Assembly: GCF_009914755.1 (NCBI RefSeq)
Contig: NC_060928.1
Strand: one strand, 5' to 3'
Length of the DNA stretch: 64,000 bases
DNA from: the human T2T-CHM13v2.0 reference genome, Homo sapiens
Part shown: piece by piece, positions 2,679-33,482 of the stretch
Position numbering within the stretch: position 1 is the first letter of the stretch
Layout: the number at the start of each line of letters is the position of its first letter
Made by a program: the position numbers and the translations under genes
Notes under the pieces: model-generated
Told to the model about the DNA's origin: nothing
The model's input: only the letters and a program-made list of their open reading frames with translations
Database searches by the model: none

Positions 2679-2827
2679 AAAATGCTAAATGACGAGTTAA
2701 TGGGTGCAGCACACCAATATGGCACATGTATACATACGTAACATACCTGCACATTGTGCACATGTACCCTAAAACTTAAAGTATAATAATAATAAAATAA
2801 AATAAAATAAAGAATTTAAAAAAAAAA
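2679..2827 (+). mobile_element. Short L1PA4-like 3' end with A-rich tail; inverted twin of 5885-6030
   Basis: aatgctaaatgacgagttaatgggtgcagcacacc...ccctaaaacttaaagtataat plus tail; no TSD visible. Confidence 0.9.
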
Positions 2828-5800
2828 GAACTACAGCTGTCAGTATCTACAATCTTAGTCTGGACTATGCAGACTTGTACACAATATATATGTGTTTCCC
2901 TGGCACAGTATCTGTAGTGAGATTAACAAAAAGATCATTTGTAGGATTTACATTAGATAACCTGAAGTTAAAAATATTCTACATATTCTAGTATCCTGGT
3001 ATTCACAGAAAATTAATTAAGTCAAATTAATAAGGGAGCCAGATATTTCTCATTAAAGTCAGCAATTTAAAACTTTAAAAATAACATCGTTTTCAACCAT
3101 ATATAGGAGAAACAAAATTTACTGACCTCATTTGATTGGTTATCTATTTTTGTAAGTCCCTGAAGTAGCAAACAATTACTCTTGTCAGTTTTTGTTACAG
3201 TCTTGGAAAGATCTAGGGCAACCCTTTCTCATTTTTTTTTTCTTTCTTCAACATGTTTAAATGCAGACGACAAGGACACTTCACAGGCTTATGCCAAAAA
3301 CATCAATCGCTTTTTAATGAGGCCATCACCCTGAGTAGGTCATGGAATATTAAAAAAAAATGAACATATTGCTGTCATTGGGGATTGTCAGTGGGGCTGA
3401 AGGGTATCGATGAGGAAACACAATACCAGGACACAATACACTGAACTGCCTACTTTTCAAAAGGCAGTTAATTAGAAAATGCTATATGAACGACCCTTGC
3501 CCATGTCCTTGGTGCACTCAAGTTATGTCTGTGTGAATAAGAGAACCATGCTCTGCTTTCCTCAACAGAGGACTAGTTGGCTGAGACACATGACCAGGCA
3601 TTATCTACACAGTCAATTGGGAGAATTAAAAGGTCATTCATTCAATAGGAAAGATTTCCCTTTTAGTGGCCCTGTCTAGCTGGGAGATTATCATCATGAA
3701 TGAGCAAGAAGGAGAACAATAGTTTGTGAGAACCTAGATCCAATCAATGAGAATACTGAGGAAAAGAAATTGAAAGATAAGATAAGGTGTTACTATAATG
3801 ACATTTAAGCTCTTCATCTTCAGCTTCTCATTTGCTCCTCTAGTCCCATCTTTCACTGCTCACTATTACACAGTTAGTGCAGAAGCAAGATAGAAATTGC
3901 TTATTTTCCTGTTTACACCTCCTCTATTTCATCTGCAGGCCATCGCGCATGTTGTTTACTTAAACTGGGACATCCTCTTGCTTATCCTGCTGGAAAATGC
4001 CTATTTATTATTCAAGTCTGTTCATGTGCTACCACTTGTGTAAAGCTGTTCTGACTCTTTCAGCCGAGCAGTGCTGGCCCATTGTGGAGATCTGTGGCAA
4101 AAATGATTATGACTGTCTACCAAATTTCCATTAGCAAGGTGTTTTCTCTGGGAAGCAGCTTCTTAAGGAGGAACTGCAATTTTCAGATTCCCTGTAATCT
4201 AGGTGGAATCCTTTAATTAGCCTTTGCCATAGACTGTGAGCCGAAATCATATGCATTACTTTTTGCTTAAGATGTTTAGGAAGTTGTTGTAACCTTTTCC
4301 CACATCTTCCATCTGAATACAGAGACTGAAAGAGTATAGGAGATGCCTGAGGAAGAATAAGAGTGAATAATACATAGAGGAAAACCACCTTTCTGCTATC
4401 TGGGAACACCTGCATCCAAGCTATTAAAATATAGAACTCATTAGTTTTACCGTGTAGGATTTCCCTTAATAAGGTGATATACAAGACTTAGGTTAATACA
4501 CATATGCCATAGAACTGGCATTTTAAAACTGATTAGTTACTTCTTTGCACACCTTCTTCTTTAGTAGACTTAGGAAACATGTCTTGTTACTTTTGTAGCT
4601 CAACTGCCTAGCAAACTAGTCACACTGTACAGGGATACAATAACATAGGATGAATTAATGATGATCTCGTAACTACTCTTTAATGAGAACCTTTACTGCA
4701 CAGCAGCATATGACATTTATCTCCTTTAAATCTGCAACATCTGTGCAGTGAGCACTAAAATCTATGTTTTCCAGAAGGTCATAATCGTTTATTCATCTGA
4801 GTATACATTGATTCCTGATGCTATACCATACAATTTCCAAGGACCAAAGACAAAACCATGAAAAGAGAGGTGTTTTTTGTTGTTTCAAAGTCTATAGTTA
4901 ATACAGTTCATTCAGTTACAAATTTTGTCTTCAGTGTTGCTGGGGACACTTTTTAAAGCATAGATCTCCACTGCTCTGTAAGTTCAGAGTCACATAGTCA
5001 TACAACATATTCTCCAAAGCCAGTGCTGTTTCTGAAGTAAAGAATTATCAGGTTTTCTTTTGTTCTGTGAAAAACGTTGACAGTGAGGTCAGTCGATGGG
5101 GCTTTTTAGCTGTCATAATTTGTTTTCAAAATTATTTTTTGTTCAAAAAATGTATGAAGTCATTGCTATATATTGATATAGTGAGAAGAGTTCCCAGTGT
5201 ATTAGTCTTGGTGTTGAAAGAACCAGTTTATTATGTAAATTTTAATTGCATTCTTTTCTTGTAAATAAATGTTTACAGGTGACCTTCATGTCTACAAAAC
5301 TAACAAATGGTATAGTACCTAATTTCTACCTTGCCCAGGTCTATGCAAGCTCATAATGCTATTCCTGCACCCATGTAATAAACTTCTTTTTGCTTGGAGT
5401 CTGAAATTCAATTGCTTAACAGATAAAATTCACAGCACAAGGTCAATCATTATGGATGATACTAGTTTGAAGCTAAGCTTTCTCCTTGTCTTTGTTTGGT
5501 ATCAGCTGAATTTCTCTGTGACTGTAAATCTTATCAATACCCATCCAAAGAAACTAGCTTGAAGAATAATTGAGAGTGCATTTGGGCAATGAACACACAA
5601 AGCTTTTTGTACTTTGAGTAAATTTCAAAGAGTGAATAGCAAATATCTCATTTCAACAGGTAAGTGCAAGCATTTATATAGTAGGGTAGACTGCAGATAT
5701 AGGCTCTTTCATCAAAAGTCAGGGAAGATGGTTCCAGTAGCTGCAACTCCCCAGGAAAAGAAATATAACATAGTCTTTATGAGTACAGGTAGCTCAGTGG

Positions 5801-5884
5801 CTTCTGTCATTCGCAACTAATGAAATTCAAATTATAAAAATCATCATTACAAGACTTAAACATGATAATGGATGGGTAGTTCTT

Positions 5885-6030
5885 TTTTTTAAATAAATTC
5901 TTTATTTTATTTTATTATTATTATACTTTAAGTTTTAGGGTACATGTGCACAATGTGCAGGTTTGTTACATATGTATACATGTGCCATATTGGTGTGCTG
6001 CACCCATTATCTCGTCATTTAGCATTTTTT
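5885..6030 (-). mobile_element. Short L1PA4-like 3' end with tail, part of an L1/tRNA chimeric insertion within a MIR
   Basis: Reverse complement of the L1 3' UTR end; the whole insertion is flanked by ggatg(g/t)gtagttctt at 5870-5884 and 6066-6080. Confidence 0.92.
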
Positions 6031-6032
6031 AT

Positions 6033-6070
6033 GGCTCGTTGGTCTAGGGGTATGATTCTCGCTTAGGATG
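6033..6070 (+). pseudogene. tRNA-Pro(AGG) 5'-half retropseudogene (tailless, 3'-truncated)
   Basis: GGCTCGTTGGTCTAGGGGTATGATTCTCGCTTAGGATG matches the human tRNA-Pro 5' end from nt 1 through anticodon AGG (6065-6067); the T-arm and 3' acceptor strand are absent. Confidence 0.92.
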
Positions 6071-6256
6071 TGTAGTTCTTACCTACAGTGACTGGATGCG
6101 TATTGAGTTCTCAGTAAATGTTAACTTTAACTATTATCCTATAATACATTGTAAAAATGTAACTTTCTAACATATTAGAAATATATCAGATGAGATTGAG
6201 CAATATTTCAGGACTTCTGCTATTGAATACAAACATTCAAAATTTCCCAAATCCTA

Positions 6257-6619
6257 TAGGTGGAGTGTCCCTGATCTGAAATGCTTGGGACCAGATGTGT
6301 TTTCAGATTTCAGATGTTTTCAGATGTTGGAATATTTACACAGACATAATAAGATGTCTTAGGAATGAGCCCTAAGTGTAAACACAAAATTCATTTATGT
6401 TTCATATATGCCTCATCCACATAGCATAAAGGTAATTTCATACAATATTTTTAATAACATTGTGCATGAAACAAAGTTTTGACGGCATTTTCACTGTGAC
6501 CCATTATATGAGGTCAGGTGTGAGATTTTCCATTTATGGGTTCATGTTAGTGTTAAAAAAGTTTCAAATTTCAGATCATTACAGATTTCAAATTTTTGAA
6601 TTTGGGATGCTCAATTTAT
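6257..6619. mobile_element. TcMar-Tigger non-autonomous element (Tigger4b/MER46-like)
   Basis: Decayed TIRs aggtggagtgtccct ... gggatgctcaattt, internal aaatgcttgggaccaga; about 360 bp. Confidence 0.75.
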
Positions 6620-26159: not shown

Positions 26160-26386
26160 CAATTTTTGACAACTTTGTTAAGGTATAATTGGCATACAAT
26201 ACATGATACATGTTTAACATGTATAATTTCATAATTTCTGACATAAATACGTCCATGAAACCCTCCCACAATCAAGAGAGTAAACATATCCATCAATCTC
26301 AAAAGCTTCCTTGCACTCCTTTGTCATCTCTCTCTCCTGCCCTCCCATGTCACTCCCACCTCCATCCCCAAGCAACCACTGATTTG

Positions 26387-26390
<4 letters not shown>
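26160..26390 (-). mobile_element. Old L1MB-like 3' end, split by the L1HS and resuming at about 32476-32625
   Basis: aactttgttaaggtataattggcatacaat...ccccaagcaaccactgatttgcttt|atgttactgtagattagttt reads colinearly across the L1HS. Confidence 0.7.
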
Positions 26391-26417
<27 letters not shown>

Positions 26418-26664
26418 CTTTTTTTTCTTTTTTTTTTTTTTTTTATTTTTTTTTTTTTTATTATACTCTCAGTTTTAGGGTACATGTGCACATTGTGCAG
26501 GTTAGTTACATATGTATACATGTGCCATGCTGGTGCACTGCACCCACTAATGTGTCATCTAGCATTAGGTATATCTCCCAATGCTATCCCTCCCCCCTCC
26601 CCCGACCCCACCACAGTCCCCAGAGTGTGATATTCCCCTTCCTGTGTCCATGTGATCTCATTGT

Positions 26665-30517
<3,853 letters not shown>

Positions 30518-30556
30518 TCATTAGTTGATGCAGTTTCTTCCTAGTCTCGATGGTCT

Positions 30557-31573
30557 TTACATTTTGGCATGATTTTGCAGCGGCTGGTACCGGTTGTTCC
30601 TTTCCATGTTTAGTGATTCCTTCAGGAGCTCTTTTAGGGCAGGCCTGGTGGTGACAAAATCTCTCAGCATTTGCTTGTCTATAAAGTATTTTATTTCTCC
30701 TTCACTTATGAAGCTTAGTTTGGCTGGATATGAAATTCTGGGTTGAAAATTCTTTTCTTTAAGAATGTTGAATATTGGCCCCCACTCTCTTCTGGCTTGT
30801 AGGGTTTCTGCCGAGAGATCCGCTGTTAGTCTGATGGGCTTTCCTTTGAGGGTAACCTGACCTTTCTCTCTGGCTGCCCTTAACATTTTTTCCTTCATTT
30901 CAACTTTGGTGAATCTGACAAGTATGTGTCTTGGAGTTGCTCTTCTCGAGGAGTATCTTTGTGGCGTTCTCTGTATTTCCTGAATCTGAACGTTGGCCTG
31001 CCTTGCTAGATTGGGGAAGTTCTCCTGGATAATATCCTGCAGAGTGTTTTCCAACTTGGTTCCATTCTCCACATCACTTTCAGGTACACCAATCAGACGT
31101 AGATTTGGTCTTTTCACATAGTCCCATATTTCTTGGAGGCTTTGCTCATTTCTTTTTATTCTTTTTTCTCTAAACTTCCCTTCTCGCTTCATTTCATTCA
31201 TTTCATCTTCCATTGCTGATACCCTTTCTTCCAGTTGATCGCATCGGCTCCTGAGGCTTCTGCATTCTTCACGTAGTTCTCGAGCCTTGGTTTTCAGCTC
31301 CATCAGCTCCTTTAAGCACTTCTCTGTATTGGTTATTCTAGTTATACATTCTTCTAAATTTTTTTCAAAGTTTTCAACTTCTTTGCCTTTGGTTTGAATG
31401 TCCTCCCGTAGCTCAGAGTAATTTGATCGTCTGAAGCCTTCTTCTCTCAGCTCGTCAAAATCATTCTCCATCCAGCTTTGTTCTGTTGCTAGTGAGGAAC
31501 TGCGTTCCTTTGGAGGAGGAGAGGCGCTCTGCGTTTTAGAGTTTCCAGTTTTTCTGTTCTGTTTTTTCCCCAT
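30557..31573 (-). CDS. L1 ORF1p, 338 aa, open
   Basis: Full ORF MGKKQNRK...QNHAKM with REKG, ARR and YPAKLS motifs intact. Confidence 0.95.
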   Translation of the reverse strand: MGKKQNRKTGNSKTQSASPPPKERSSSLATEQSWMENDFDELREEGFRRSNYSELREDIQTKGKEVENFEKNLEECITRITNTEKCLKELMELKTKARELREECRSLRSRCDQLEERVSAMEDEMNEMKREGKFREKRIKRNEQSLQEIWDYVKRPNLRLIGVPESDVENGTKLENTLQDIIQENFPNLARQANVQIQEIQRTPQRYSSRRATPRHILVRFTKVEMKEKMLRAAREKGQVTLKGKPIRLTADLSAETLQARREWGPIFNILKEKNFQPRISYPAKLSFISEGEIKYFIDKQMLRDFVTTRPALKELLKESLNMERNNRYQPLQNHAKM

Positions 31574-32475
31574 CTTTGTGGTTTTATCTACTTTTGGTCT
31601 TTGATGATGGTGATGTACAGATGGGTTTTCGGTGTAGATGTCCTTTCTGGTTGTTAGTTTTCCTTCTAACAGACAGGACCCTCAGCTGCAGGTCTGTTGG
31701 AATACCCTGCCGTGTGAGGTGTCAGTGTGCCCCTGCTGGGGGGTGCCTCCCAGTTAGGCTGCTCGGGGGTCAGGGGTCAGGGACCCACTTGAGGAGGCAG
31801 TCTGCCCGTTCTCAGATCTCCAGCTGCGTGCTGGGAGAACCACTGCTCTCTTCAAAGCTGTCAGACAGGGACACTTAAGTCTGCAGAGGTTACTGCTGTC
31901 TTTTTGTTTGTCTGTGCCCTGCCCCCAGAGGTGGAGCCTACAGAGGCAGGCAGGCCTCCTTGAGCTGTGGTGGGCTCCACCCAGTTCGAGCTTCCCGGCT
32001 GCTTTGTTTACCTAAGCAAGCCTGGGCAATGGCGGGCGCCCCTCCCCCAGCCTCGTTGCCGCCTTGCAGTTTGATCTCAGACTGCTGTGCTAGCAATCAG
32101 CGAGATTCCGTGGGCGTAGGACCCTCTGAGCCAGGTGTGGGATATAGTCTCGTGGTGCGCCGTTTCTTAAGCCGGTCTGAAAAGCGCAATATTCGGGTGG
32201 GAGTGACCCGATTTTCCAGGTACGTCCGTCACCCCTTTCTTTGACTCGGAAAGGGAACTCCCTGACCCCTTGCGCTTCCCAGGTGAGGCAATGCCTCGCC
32301 CTGCTTCGGCTTGCGCACGGTGCGCACACACACTGGCCTGCGCCCACTGTCTGGCACTCCCTATTGAGATGAACCCGGTACCTCAGATGGAAATGCAGAA
32401 ATCACCCGTCTTCTGCGTCGCTCACGCTGGGAGCTGTAGACCGGAGCTGTTCCTATTCGGCCATCTTGGCTCCTC
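31574..32475. promoter_or_regulatory. L1HS 5'UTR: internal sense promoter, antisense promoter, CpG island, YY1 site
   Basis: High CpG density; intact CAAGATGGCCG on the minus strand at about 32458-32468. Confidence 0.85.
32029..32244 (+). CDS. L1 ORF0 (antisense, 71 aa)
   Basis: MAGAPPPASLPPCSLISDCCASNQRDSVGVGPSEPG...RHPFL from the ATG at 32029. Confidence 0.85.
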   Translation: MAGAPPPASLPPCSLISDCCASNQRDSVGVGPSEPGVGYSLVVRRFLSRSEKRNIRVGVTRFSRYVRHPFL

Positions 32476-33482
32476 CCACTGATTTGCTTTATGTTACTGT
32501 AGATTAGTTTATATTTTCCAGATACACTGGTTTATTTTACTCAGCATAATTATTATGAGCTTCATTCTTGGTGTTGCATGTCCATTCCTTTTAATTACTG
32601 AGTATATTCTATATTAGTGGAGATCCATTTGAGGGTTTTACGCAATTGGATGAAATTCTTATTTTACATGTGTTAGGTCCTAAATGAGCTGAATCTGATT
32701 CTATCTTTAGGCTAATCTCCTACTACTCTTTGATCTTCTTTATAGAAGTATTAGAATATCTTTTGTTCCACAAACTATGTTGGTTAAAGGGCTCTTATCT
32801 TTCCATATGCCAATCACTATGCTTAGAACAAAAAACTCCCTGTTTATGTGATACATGCCTATTTATCGTTCTGAGCTCAGCATTTGAGTACCTTTTAAAA
32901 TGCTTTCTCTATCTATGATCGAGATATTCTCTTCTATGTTGCCTCAGGATTGTACTGTCATCTCCTTTAATTGATTACACTCTATACTCATTATTTGTTG
33001 GCCCCATGTGCTTATTCCCTACTAGAATACGAGTTTTTTGAGATTCATACCATGTCATGGTTATTATTTTTTATAAACATTTAGCACAGTGCAATAATTA
33101 CAATTGATATAAATATAATTTTGTTGAACTTGCATTGAGATTATAATTTGGTTGGAATGAATGAAATAGAAATCTTGGAATTGCTTCTTTTCAAGCCCTG
33201 GAATTAAATAGAAGTGACAACAAAGATGACTTTTAGTGAATCATATCAGTGTAATTACCAAACAGACGGAGGCTCTCTTTGGTTGTTCTCAGTTTAGGAG
33301 CGTGAAGGCAGAGGCTGGCCATGCACACATGGCAGACCCACAATCCTCCACAGTCATGAGAATCAATACTGGTGGATTGATGATACTCAGTTACTTATTT
33401 TTAATCATACGTGAATAGTTTATTTTCTTTAGATGTTGTTAGCTCAAACAAGATTATTTGAGTGACTCTCATGAAATAAGTA

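What the first reader, a model, noticed from the sequence alone, without database searches (positions are those of the whole stretch)
5870..6080. Head-to-head L1/tRNA-Pro chimera inside one TSD: twin priming on two different RNAs
Seen: the 15-bp TSD ggatg(g/t)gtagttctt (5870-5884, 6066-6080) encloses an L1 tail plus 3' end on - (5885-6030), a 2-nt linker, and the first 38 nt of tRNA-Pro(AGG) on + (6033-6070). The tRNA starts exactly at mature nt 1 and its last bases (GGATG) are the first bases of the right TSD. The empty site reads ttctt/ac, an L1 endonuclease-like site, and removing the insertion restores a MIR. Known: twin priming yields inverted 5' segments from the same L1 RNA; U6/L1 chimeras are same-orientation template switches; tailless tRNA retropseudogenes are primed by target complementarity. 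Inference: the top-strand nick primed on the L1 poly(A), the bottom-strand nick (3' end ...catcc) primed near the tRNA anticodon loop, and the two cDNAs were joined. The tRNA could have been full length or an anticodon-cleaved 5' half. I cannot say whether this class is already catalogued.
Basis: partly seen in the sequence, partly recalled or inferred. Interest (0 to 1): 0.85.

Follow-up and report, generated by a model that had tools for sequence, protein, structure and literature searches.

The report
L1 and tRNA-half joint retro-insertion
A short LINE-1 tail and the first half of a proline tRNA were pasted head to head into one target site, a kind of retrotransposition scar catalogued in 2025-26 that does not list this locus; an odd inverted partial copy lies 3 kb away.

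Summary
A 15-bp target-site duplication (5870-5884 / 6066-6080, 14 of 15 identical) encloses three pieces. They are an antisense L1 3' end with its A-rich tail (5885-6026), a 6-nt filler (6027-6032, not 2 nt), and tRNA-Pro(AGG) from mature nt 1 (6033 onward). The tRNA matches all AGG genes for 35 nt and one chr16 gene for 38 nt. A chrX paralogue of the flanks carries one uninterrupted copy of the site. The geometry fits priming of the L1 RNA from the EN-like nick TTCTT/AC and priming of the tRNA from the reciprocal 3' end ...CATCC.

The class is already in print. Law & Burns (Cell Genomics 2026) list 21 tRNA/L1 chimeras, mostly nt 1-37, antisense, and attributed to twin priming. This locus is not among them, so it is a new member of a known kind.

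Two things are new here. First, an inverted 157-bp copy of the L1 arm lies 3 kb upstream (2679-2835). It includes 10 nt of the TSD and stops 2 nt past the L1 5' end, so it may be a copy of the integration intermediate. Second, tRNA position 34 reads A, not the G expected from inosine, so the template was not deaminated.

The parts
5870..5884 (+). Left copy of the 15-bp target-site duplication (GGATGGGTAGTTCTT). Its 3' end is the EN-like first-strand nick TTCTT/AC.
   Evidence: single copy in the chrX paralogue
5885..5913 (-). A-rich L1 tail, seen as T-rich on the + strand: T6 AAATAAATTC TTTATTTTATTTT
5914..6026 (-). 5'-truncated L1 3' UTR end, 113 bp. It differs from the other L1 copies compared at only 2 positions (5989, 6010).
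6027..6032 (.). 6-nt filler 'ttttat' between the two cDNA-derived arms. The first 2 nt are shared with copy A. It matches no tRNA-Pro gene leader.
6033..6067 (+). tRNA-Pro(AGG) mature nt 1-35. Nt 1-33 (6033-6065) can only come from the tRNA. GG at 6066-6067, or GGATG to 6070 for the chr16 A37 gene variant, overlaps the right TSD.
6066..6080 (+). Right copy of the TSD (GGATGTGTAGTTCTT). It keeps the ancestral T at its 6th base.
2679..2835 (+). Copy A, an inverted partial copy of the L1 arm (L1 sense on +). It comprises 'aa', then the same 113-bp L1 end with the same truncation, the same unusual tail, and AAGAACTACA, which is the reverse complement of the last 10 nt of the TSD. It has no tRNA, no TSD of its own and no poly(A) after the flank piece.

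Best explanation
This is a fossil of one LINE-1-mediated insertion that used two RNA templates.

1. ORF2p nicked the + strand at TTCTT/AC. That 3' end primed reverse transcription on the poly(A) end of an L1 RNA, giving the antisense L1 arm 5885-6026.
2. The staggered second break 15 bp upstream left the reciprocal 3' end ...CACATCC on the - strand.
3. That end paired with 2-5 nt at GG(G/A)UG in the anticodon loop of tRNA-Pro(AGG), or at the 3' end of a 5' tRNA half. It was extended to tRNA nt 1.
4. The two cDNA ends were joined with 6 nt of filler.

The result is a head-to-head L1/tRNA-half chimera inside one 15-bp TSD. It belongs to the antisense tRNA/LINE-1 chimera class of Law & Burns 2026.

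Shown: the anatomy, the single-copy empty site in a paralogue, the start at mature nt 1, and the overlap of the tRNA end with the TSD.
Inferred: the order of steps, that both arms arrived together, and the nature of the tRNA template. The template was probably a nuclear tRNA or 5' half that was 5'-processed but not deaminated, because position 34 reads A.

The insertion has no evident function. No gene is annotated in the window.
For: - TSD of 15 bp, 14 of 15 identical, found twice against 0.02 expected.
- The L1 tail abuts the left TSD and the tRNA abuts, and overlaps, the right TSD.
- The chrX paralogue has one uninterrupted copy of the site, followed by AGGTACAG.
- The tRNA piece is the only truncated copy among 19 exact genome matches to its first 32 nt. 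It starts at nt 1 and matches no gene's 5' leader.
- The T-rich, EN-like nick is on the L1 side (TTCTT/AC). The tRNA-side break (CATCC/ATTAT) is not EN-like, as expected for a reciprocal end.
- Published class: 21 tRNA/L1 chimeras. By my count of Table S3, 16 of 21 are antisense and 9 of those 16 end at nt 36-39. TSDs are 9-19 bp in all 8 loci examined for TSDs. Among the 6 antisense loci of those 8, the annotated tRNA end overlaps the TSD by 1-5 nt in 5.
- In experimental L1 insertions, 5'-inverted (twin-primed) events keep discrete 12-18 bp TSDs, and 71% have at least 2 bp of microhomology at the 5' junction (passages of PMC11702581).
- A lone tRNA-Pro(AGG) nt 1-35 copy with its own 16-bp TSD ends at the same nucleotide (L056). 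This fits a recurrent 5'-half-like template.
Against: - No orthologous empty or half-filled site could be examined, so joint arrival rests on anatomy alone.
- The EN motif is imperfect (TTCTT/AC against the textbook TTTT/AA).
The perfect 5-bp pairing needs the single chr16 A37 gene.
- Position 34 is A. Mature A34 tRNAs are nearly all I34, which reads as G (PMC4446420 passages). A cytoplasmic angiogenin-type half of a mature tRNA is therefore not the simplest template.
- The inverted copy A, sharing 10 nt of the TSD, is not predicted by plain twin priming. The history has at least one further step.
Confidence: 0.75

Rival explanations
1. Copy A came first. The L1 arm of B was reverse-transcribed from a read-through transcript of locus A, or copied from its DNA. 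Priming would have used 10 nt of complementarity between the nicked target ...TGTAGTTCTT-3' and AAGAACUACA just downstream of A's A-run. The tRNA arm was still added at the reciprocal end.
For: A and B share the truncation point plus 2 nt, the tail, the variant at 5989 and the 10-mer. Target-complementary priming over 2-18 nt is described for tailless retropseudogenes. An AATAAA lies 24-26 nt upstream of the CA at the end of the 10-mer.
Against: The chrX paralogue shows that the 10-mer is native to the B site. A's identical flank would therefore have to be a chance match within 3 kb. By my estimate that has a chance of roughly 0.006-0.09. B's cDNA would also have had to stop exactly 2 nt beyond A's L1 boundary. 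A has no TSD or EN-like site of its own, and its flanks show no other similarity to B's.
Confidence: 0.1
2. There were two sequential insertions. Either a tailless tRNA-Pro 5' fragment landed first with the 15-bp TSD and an L1 later dropped in exactly between the left TSD and the tRNA, or the L1 landed first and the tRNA fragment later landed exactly at its 5' junction.
For: Lone TSD-flanked tRNA-Pro 5' fragments exist (L056, L055). Tailless tRNA retropseudogenes are common.
Against: The second insertion would need no TSD of its own and would need to hit a junction to the nucleotide. The EN-like nick is on the L1 side, not the tRNA side. Only one TSD pair is present.
Confidence: 0.07
3. This was endonuclease-independent capture of nucleic-acid fragments at a chance double-strand break. 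The L1 and tRNA pieces would be filler joined by end joining, and the 15-bp repeat would come from fill-in of a staggered break.
For: There is a 6-nt filler at the internal junction, and both junctions of copy A are blunt with no TSD. Templated insertions and other complex outcomes are reported at L1-induced breaks.
Against: The poly(A)-side junction sits on a T-rich EN-like site, and the TSD length is typical of ORF2p (12-18 bp). The tRNA end overlaps the TSD in the way seen in the catalogued class.
Confidence: 0.05

Closest known systems
tRNA/LINE-1 chimeric insertions (Law & Burns, Cell Genomics 2026, PMC13174262; bioRxiv 2025)
   Same: A 5'-truncated L1 with a poly(A) tail. A tRNA piece that starts at nt 1 and ends in the anticodon loop (class norm nt 1-37). 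The tRNA is antisense to the L1. One TSD of 9-19 bp surrounds both. The tRNA end overlaps the TSD by a few nt. The proposed origin is twin priming, possibly on tRNA halves.
   Different: This locus is not in their Table S3. That table has no tRNA-Pro entry and no chr4 entry among its 21 loci, and nothing turned up at the approximate hg38 position. It also has an inverted partial copy 3 kb away. The paper does not discuss microhomology or base modifications (0 occurrences of either word).
Classical twin priming / L1 5' inversion (Ostertag & Kazazian 2001; not read here, known from citations and from recall)
   Same: The reciprocal 3' end primes a second reverse transcription. The TSD is intact. 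There is microhomology at the TSD/inverted-arm junction. The two cDNAs are joined internally.
   Different: The second template is a tRNA, not an internal part of the same L1 RNA.
Tailless tRNA retropseudogenes (Schmitz et al. 2004, recalled; Noll et al. 2015, PMC5322556, passages read)
   Same: 5'-complete tRNA copy truncated at its 3' side in a loop. No A tail. The target is complementary to the last 2-18 nt of the annealed RNA. L056 is such a lone copy of the same tRNA ending at the same nucleotide.
   Different: Here the tRNA piece has no TSD of its own. It shares one with an L1 arm and was primed from the non-EN-like reciprocal end.
U6/L1 and other same-orientation chimeras (template switching, or RtcB ligation: Moldovan et al. 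2019, PMC6789731, seen only in a search listing)
   Same: A small RNA fused to the 5' end of a truncated L1 inside one TSD.
   Different: Those chimeras are in the same orientation as the L1. This one is inverted, which neither a template switch nor RNA ligation can give (text to Figure 7).

Membership tests
Antisense tRNA/LINE-1 chimera (Law & Burns 2026) | L1 3' end with a poly(A) tail at one end of the insertion | tested here: met
   5885-6026 aligns to L1 3' ends, with the T-rich tail next to the left TSD
Antisense tRNA/LINE-1 chimera (Law & Burns 2026) | tRNA fragment within a few nt of the L1 5' end, starting at about nt 1 and ending in the anticodon loop | tested here: met
   nt 1-35 (or 1-38), 6 nt from the L1 end
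Antisense tRNA/LINE-1 chimera (Law & Burns 2026) | tRNA oriented opposite to the L1 | tested here: met
   tRNA on +, L1 on -
Antisense tRNA/LINE-1 chimera (Law & Burns 2026) | One TSD of at least 7 bp enclosing both pieces | tested here: met
   15 bp, 14 of 15 identical, found twice against 0.02 expected; single copy in the chrX paralogue
Antisense tRNA/LINE-1 chimera (Law & Burns 2026) | ORF2p endonuclease motif at the poly(A)-side nick | tested here: inconclusive
   TTCTT/AC here and TTCTT/AG in the paralogue. T-rich but not TTTT/AA.
Antisense tRNA/LINE-1 chimera (Law & Burns 2026) | Both pieces arrive at the same node in multi-species alignments | not testable with these tools
   No primate genomes were held. 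Only a human paralogue served as an empty-site proxy.
Classical twin priming | Both arms copied from the same L1 RNA | tested here: not met
   The inverted arm is tRNA-Pro, not L1
Classical twin priming | Discrete 12-18 bp TSD and microhomology at the junction of the TSD with the inverted arm | tested here: met
   15-bp TSD; GG (2 nt) or GGATG (5 nt) shared between tRNA and TSD; norms
Tailless tRNA retropseudogene | 5'-complete, 3'-truncated in a loop, no A tail, target complementary to the RNA end | tested here: met
   definition
Tailless tRNA retropseudogene | Its own TSD directly flanking the RNA-derived piece alone | tested here: not met
   The left TSD copy lies beyond the L1 arm
U6/L1-type same-orientation chimera | Small RNA in the same orientation as the L1 | tested here: not met
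   Opposite orientation

The most novel reading that the evidence does not exclude
Copy A (2679-2835) is a molecular fossil of the unresolved integration intermediate. Its limits are the 3' end of the first-strand L1 cDNA (2 untemplated nt past L1, before the filler and tRNA) and a point 10 nt into the 15-nt TSD gap. That is exactly the span of a nascent second strand, or a copy of the primary RT end. It would have been captured by blunt end joining at a second break 3 kb upstream during the same event. If so, A shows directly that the L1 cDNA existed as a separate, finished molecule before it was joined to the tRNA cDNA. It would also be a germline example of the templated insertions now seen at L1-induced breaks in cell models. 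Independently, A34 in every TSD-flanked tRNA-Pro(AGG) retrocopy seen here would mean that ORF2p samples immature, non-deaminated nuclear tRNA.
Probability: 0.3. Interest if true: 0.65.

Novelty: new member of a known kind. Interest (0 to 1): 0.38.

Why it matters
As a class this is no longer new, so the main value is confirmation. An independent, tool-free reading rediscovered a chimera type catalogued in 2025-26, at a locus that catalogue does not list. This suggests that catalogues relying on RepeatMasker annotation and alignment filters under-count such events.

Two details could sharpen the mechanism.
- The tRNA positions that overlap the TSD, and the unedited A34, bear on which tRNA species ORF2p copies: a nuclear, immature tRNA or a cytoplasmic half.
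- The nearby inverted copy with part of the TSD may record the state of the first-strand cDNA before the insertion was resolved.

Both ideas can be tested with primate T2T assemblies and with existing de novo L1 insertion data.

Tried and rejected
- ARAGORN and Rfam at E up to 10 do not see the half tRNA. Only weak snoRNA-like chance hits appeared. Identity was settled by exact matching to genes instead.
- The filler is not a pre-tRNA 5' leader. None of the 18 genes has 'ttttat' upstream.
- The tRNA 3' half is absent from the window at up to 3 mismatches.
- A and B as independent insertions: rejected. Truncation at 'tagcatt' followed by TT occurs at only 6 genome sites including A and B. A and B alone also share the 5989 variant, the tail and the 10-nt flank.
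- A larger inverted segmental duplication or inversion: rejected. The flanks beyond the 157 bp show no similarity (z of 2 or less in all 12 comparisons). B's two flanks are contiguous in the chrX paralogue.
- A third source locus carrying tail plus flank: not found. The 22-mer tail motif occurs only in A, B and one chrX L1, which differs from B at 4 of 113 compared positions and lacks the flank. The 16-mer TGTAGTTCTTTTTTTT is unspecific: 107 hits against 47 in the control.
- An empty-site proxy for A: none. A's left flank matches only itself.
- The search with B's right flank did not complete and was not needed.
- The foldback and hairpin models of PMC11702581 were worked through by hand. The junction of the cDNA 3' end with inverted upstream DNA resembles their chr5 example. 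No version reproduces both A and an intact B without an extra copying step.

Full report
**What is there.** On the + strand the window reads as follows:
- GGATGGGTAGTTCTT (5870-5884);
- a T-rich run and the reverse complement of an L1 3' end (5885-6026);
- 'ttttat' (6027-6032);
- GGCTCGTTGGTCTAGGGGTATGATTCTCGCTTAGG (6033-6067);
- overlapping the last two bases of that, GGATGTGTAGTTCTT (6066-6080).

The 15-mer with one degenerate position occurs exactly twice in 64 kb, against 0.02 expected from shuffles.

**The L1 arm.** It aligns to the window's other L1 3' ends and to L1 copies fetched from the genome. Its homology ends at 6026 ('tagcatt'), where other copies continue 'aggtatatc'.

**The tRNA arm.** The window belongs to a searchable human assembly, G000, and lies on chr4. 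The first 32 nt of the tRNA piece occur 19 times in that genome. Eighteen are full-length 72-nt tRNA-Pro genes with AGG, CGG or TGG anticodons. The nineteenth is this truncated copy. ARAGORN calls two of the genes tRNA-Pro(agg).
- The match to the AGG genes is 35 of 35 nt.
- One chr16 gene (L018) has A instead of G after the anticodon.
- None of the 18 genes has 'ttttat' upstream, so the copy begins at mature nucleotide 1.
- ARAGORN and Rfam do not detect the fragment. The 3' half of the tRNA is nowhere in the window.

**Empty-site evidence.** No primate genomes were available. However, the flanks have a paralogue on chrX (G000:C23:115,024,410-115,025,242) at 84-87% identity to window 5758-5884 and 6066-6453. 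In it the two flanks are contiguous through a single GGATGTGCAGTTCTT, followed by AGGTACAG. Three things follow.
- The 15-mer was single-copy before the event.
- Everything between the two copies is insertion.
- The ancestral sixth base was T, as in the right TSD.

I could not confirm that the flanks are a MIR, because no repeat library was held. The resemblance is only my recollection.

**Mechanism.** The L1 tail abuts the left TSD, so the first-strand primer was the + strand 3' end ...TTCTT at a nick TTCTT/AC. This is T-rich and loosely like the ORF2p site TTTT/AA (established knowledge). The staggered second break 15 bp upstream leaves the - strand 3' end ...AAGAACTACACATCC. On that strand the next bases are the antisense of tRNA nt 35 to 1. 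That is what extension of this end on a tRNA template would produce. The primer's last bases pair with GG (2 bp) of the common tRNA-Pro(AGG), or with GGAUG (5 bp) of the chr16 variant. The break on the tRNA side (CATCC/ATTAT) is not EN-like. This argues that the L1 arm, not the tRNA, was primed at the primary nick, and it argues against a free-standing tRNA retropseudogene that an L1 later invaded. The two 3' ends were then joined with 6 nt of filler. A template switch or RNA ligation would put the tRNA in the same orientation as the L1, which is not seen.

**Comparison with print.** Four literature searches were run. [quoted passage not shown] I read passages of the main text and the tRNA sheet of Table S3.
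- They report 21 tRNA/LINE-1 chimeras in hg38 as a new type. The tRNA parts are typically half-length (1-37 nt highlighted) and predominantly antisense to the L1.
- TSDs are 9-19 bp in all eight loci examined, and six of the eight have an EN motif.
- They propose twin priming and possibly tRNA halves.
- By my count of the sheet, 16 of 21 are antisense, and 9 of those 16 end at nt 36-39.
- Among the six antisense loci with TSD coordinates, the annotated tRNA overlaps the TSD by 1-5 nt in five. In the held text some TSD cells sit one row off, and I matched them by coordinates.

The present locus has every anatomical feature of this class. It is not in the list: no tRNA-Pro entry, no chr4 entry in the tRNA sheet, and nothing at the approximate hg38 position. 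That position I derived from the offset of the neighbouring 5S/L1 chimera. The paper does not mention microhomology, inosine or modification.

Other papers support the parts of the model.
- Passages of Noll et al. 2015 (PMC5322556) describe tailless tRNA retropseudogenes truncated in loops, with targets complementary to the last 2-18 nt of the RNA.
- Passages of a 2024 preprint on L1-induced rearrangements (PMC11702581) report that twin-primed insertions keep 12-18 bp TSDs and that 71% have at least 2 bp of microhomology at the 5' junction. They also report templated insertions and foldbacks at ORF2p breaks.

**New observation 1: an inverted partial copy (A).** Window 2679-2835 carries the same L1 fragment in the opposite orientation, 3.05 kb upstream. 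The arms are 93% alike over about 150-158 nt.
- The L1 bodies differ at 3 of 113 positions. A has two private changes and B has one. Both share one change, at 5989, that is absent from all seven other L1 copies compared.
- They share the same truncation point plus the next two bases ('tt').
- They share the same unusual tail (...AATAAAATAAAATAAAGAATTTA, then an A run).
- They share the 10 nt next to the tail, TGTAGTTCTT. This is the last 10 nt of B's TSD and includes the ancestral T.
- Beyond these limits the flanks are unrelated. A has no tRNA, no TSD and no EN-like site.

Truncation at this L1 position followed by TT occurs at only four other genome sites. Those lack the shared variant, tail and flank. 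A and B are therefore not independent insertions.

The chrX paralogue shows that the 10-mer is native to the B site, so information flowed from the B site to A. Otherwise A's flank is a chance match that guided priming, which is the first rival.

A's limits are suggestive. One is 2 nt past the L1 end, just before the filler and tRNA. The other is inside the 15-nt TSD gap. This is the span of a second-strand copy of the primary RT end before resolution. My odds, all inference:
- about 45% that A was made from the integration intermediate or in the same event (within this, I put 30% on the full specific account given as the novel case);
- about 25% that it is a later small inverted duplication whose ends coincide by chance;
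- about 15% that A is the source of B's L1 arm;
- about 15% something else.

The counts of private against shared changes fit an early split but do not prove one.

**New observation 2: position 34.** The fragment reads CTTAGG, with A at the wobble position. According to passages of Torres et al. 2015 (PMC4446420), nearly all mature A34 tRNAs carry inosine there. Inosine reads as G, and editing is already partly present on precursors. The template was thus not deaminated, or, less simply, the A is a filler base and the tRNA ended at U33. In that case the isoacceptor would be undetermined, since nt 1-32 are common to all three.

A scan with the first 26 nt at up to 3 mismatches gave 29 hits. Besides genes, they include the following.
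- L056 (chr14): a lone nt 1-35 copy with a 16-bp TSD, ending at the same nucleotide. Its TSD shows no complementarity to the next tRNA bases, which favours a pre-cut 5' half over internal priming.
- L052/L053 (chr2, one event later duplicated): a full-length copy with a 12-bp TSD and what looks like a 3' trailer.
- L051 (chrX): nt 1-56, with no clear TSD.
- L055 (chr14): a Pro-TGG nt 1-38 copy.

All AGG-type copies keep A34: three TSD-flanked events including this one, plus L051. The sample is small, but it points to immature nuclear tRNA as what ORF2p copies. That sits awkwardly with cytoplasmic angiogenin halves of mature tRNA.

**Verdict.** It is a new, uncatalogued member of a class published in 2025-26, not a new class. 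Joint arrival of the two arms, and the origin of copy A, need primate orthologues, which these tools do not hold.

Noticed in passing
L056 (G000:C14:69100860-69100885, minus strand): A lone tRNA-Pro(AGG) nt 1-35 copy (...CGCTTAGG) flanked by a 16-bp TSD, AAAAAGAAATAGACTT, with 4 nt of filler at its 5' side. It ends at the same nucleotide as the window's fragment and also has A at position 34. Its TSD start is not complementary to the next tRNA bases.
   Followed up: partly
L049 (G000:C3:4235701-4235726, plus strand): tRNA-Pro nt 1 to about 29 (2 mismatches) runs directly into antisense L1 ORF2 sequence. The L1 part matches position about 4240 downward of the window's full-length L1 at 90% identity for at least 1.5 kb. 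This geometry differs from the finding: the tRNA is sense and lies ahead of an internally truncated, inverted L1 arm. It could be another chimera type or two separate events.
   Followed up: partly
L051, L052/L053, L056 and window 6065: Every tRNA-Pro(AGG)-derived retrocopy seen keeps A at wobble position 34, although inosine would be copied as G. L052/L053 also carries what looks like a 3' trailer (AACTTTT). This suggests unprocessed or immature templates.
   Followed up: partly
window 5758-5884 and 6066-6453; G000:C23:115024410-115025242: A roughly 515-bp unit around the insertion site has a single chrX paralogue at 84-87% identity. The paralogue is itself interrupted by about 317 bp that looks Alu-like. 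What the unit is (small segmental duplication, old repeat or retrocopy) was not determined. The paralogy does not reach copy A.
   Followed up: partly
L020-L025: Six genome L1s are truncated at 'tagcatt' followed by TT. Three of them (copy A, L022, L023) continue with AAG before diverging. This may be chance or a junction preference.
   Followed up: no
L028 (G000:C23:34866515-34866536): A longer chrX L1 shares the 22-nt tail motif TAAATTCTTTATTTTATTTTAT with A and B. These are the only three exact genome hits. It differs from B at 4 of 113 compared L1 positions and lacks a new A run after the motif. The relationship is unclear.
   Followed up: partly
window 26377-32480: A roughly 6.1-kb antisense L1 with a very long, interrupted poly(T) (about 26390-26460). 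It served only as a reference for L1 positions.
   Followed up: no
PMC13174262 Table S3, tRNA sheet: In the held text, the TSD columns of several rows carry coordinates that belong to the next locus. For example, the chr5:86372886 row lists chr6 TSD coordinates. Anyone reusing the table should match TSDs by coordinate.
   Followed up: no
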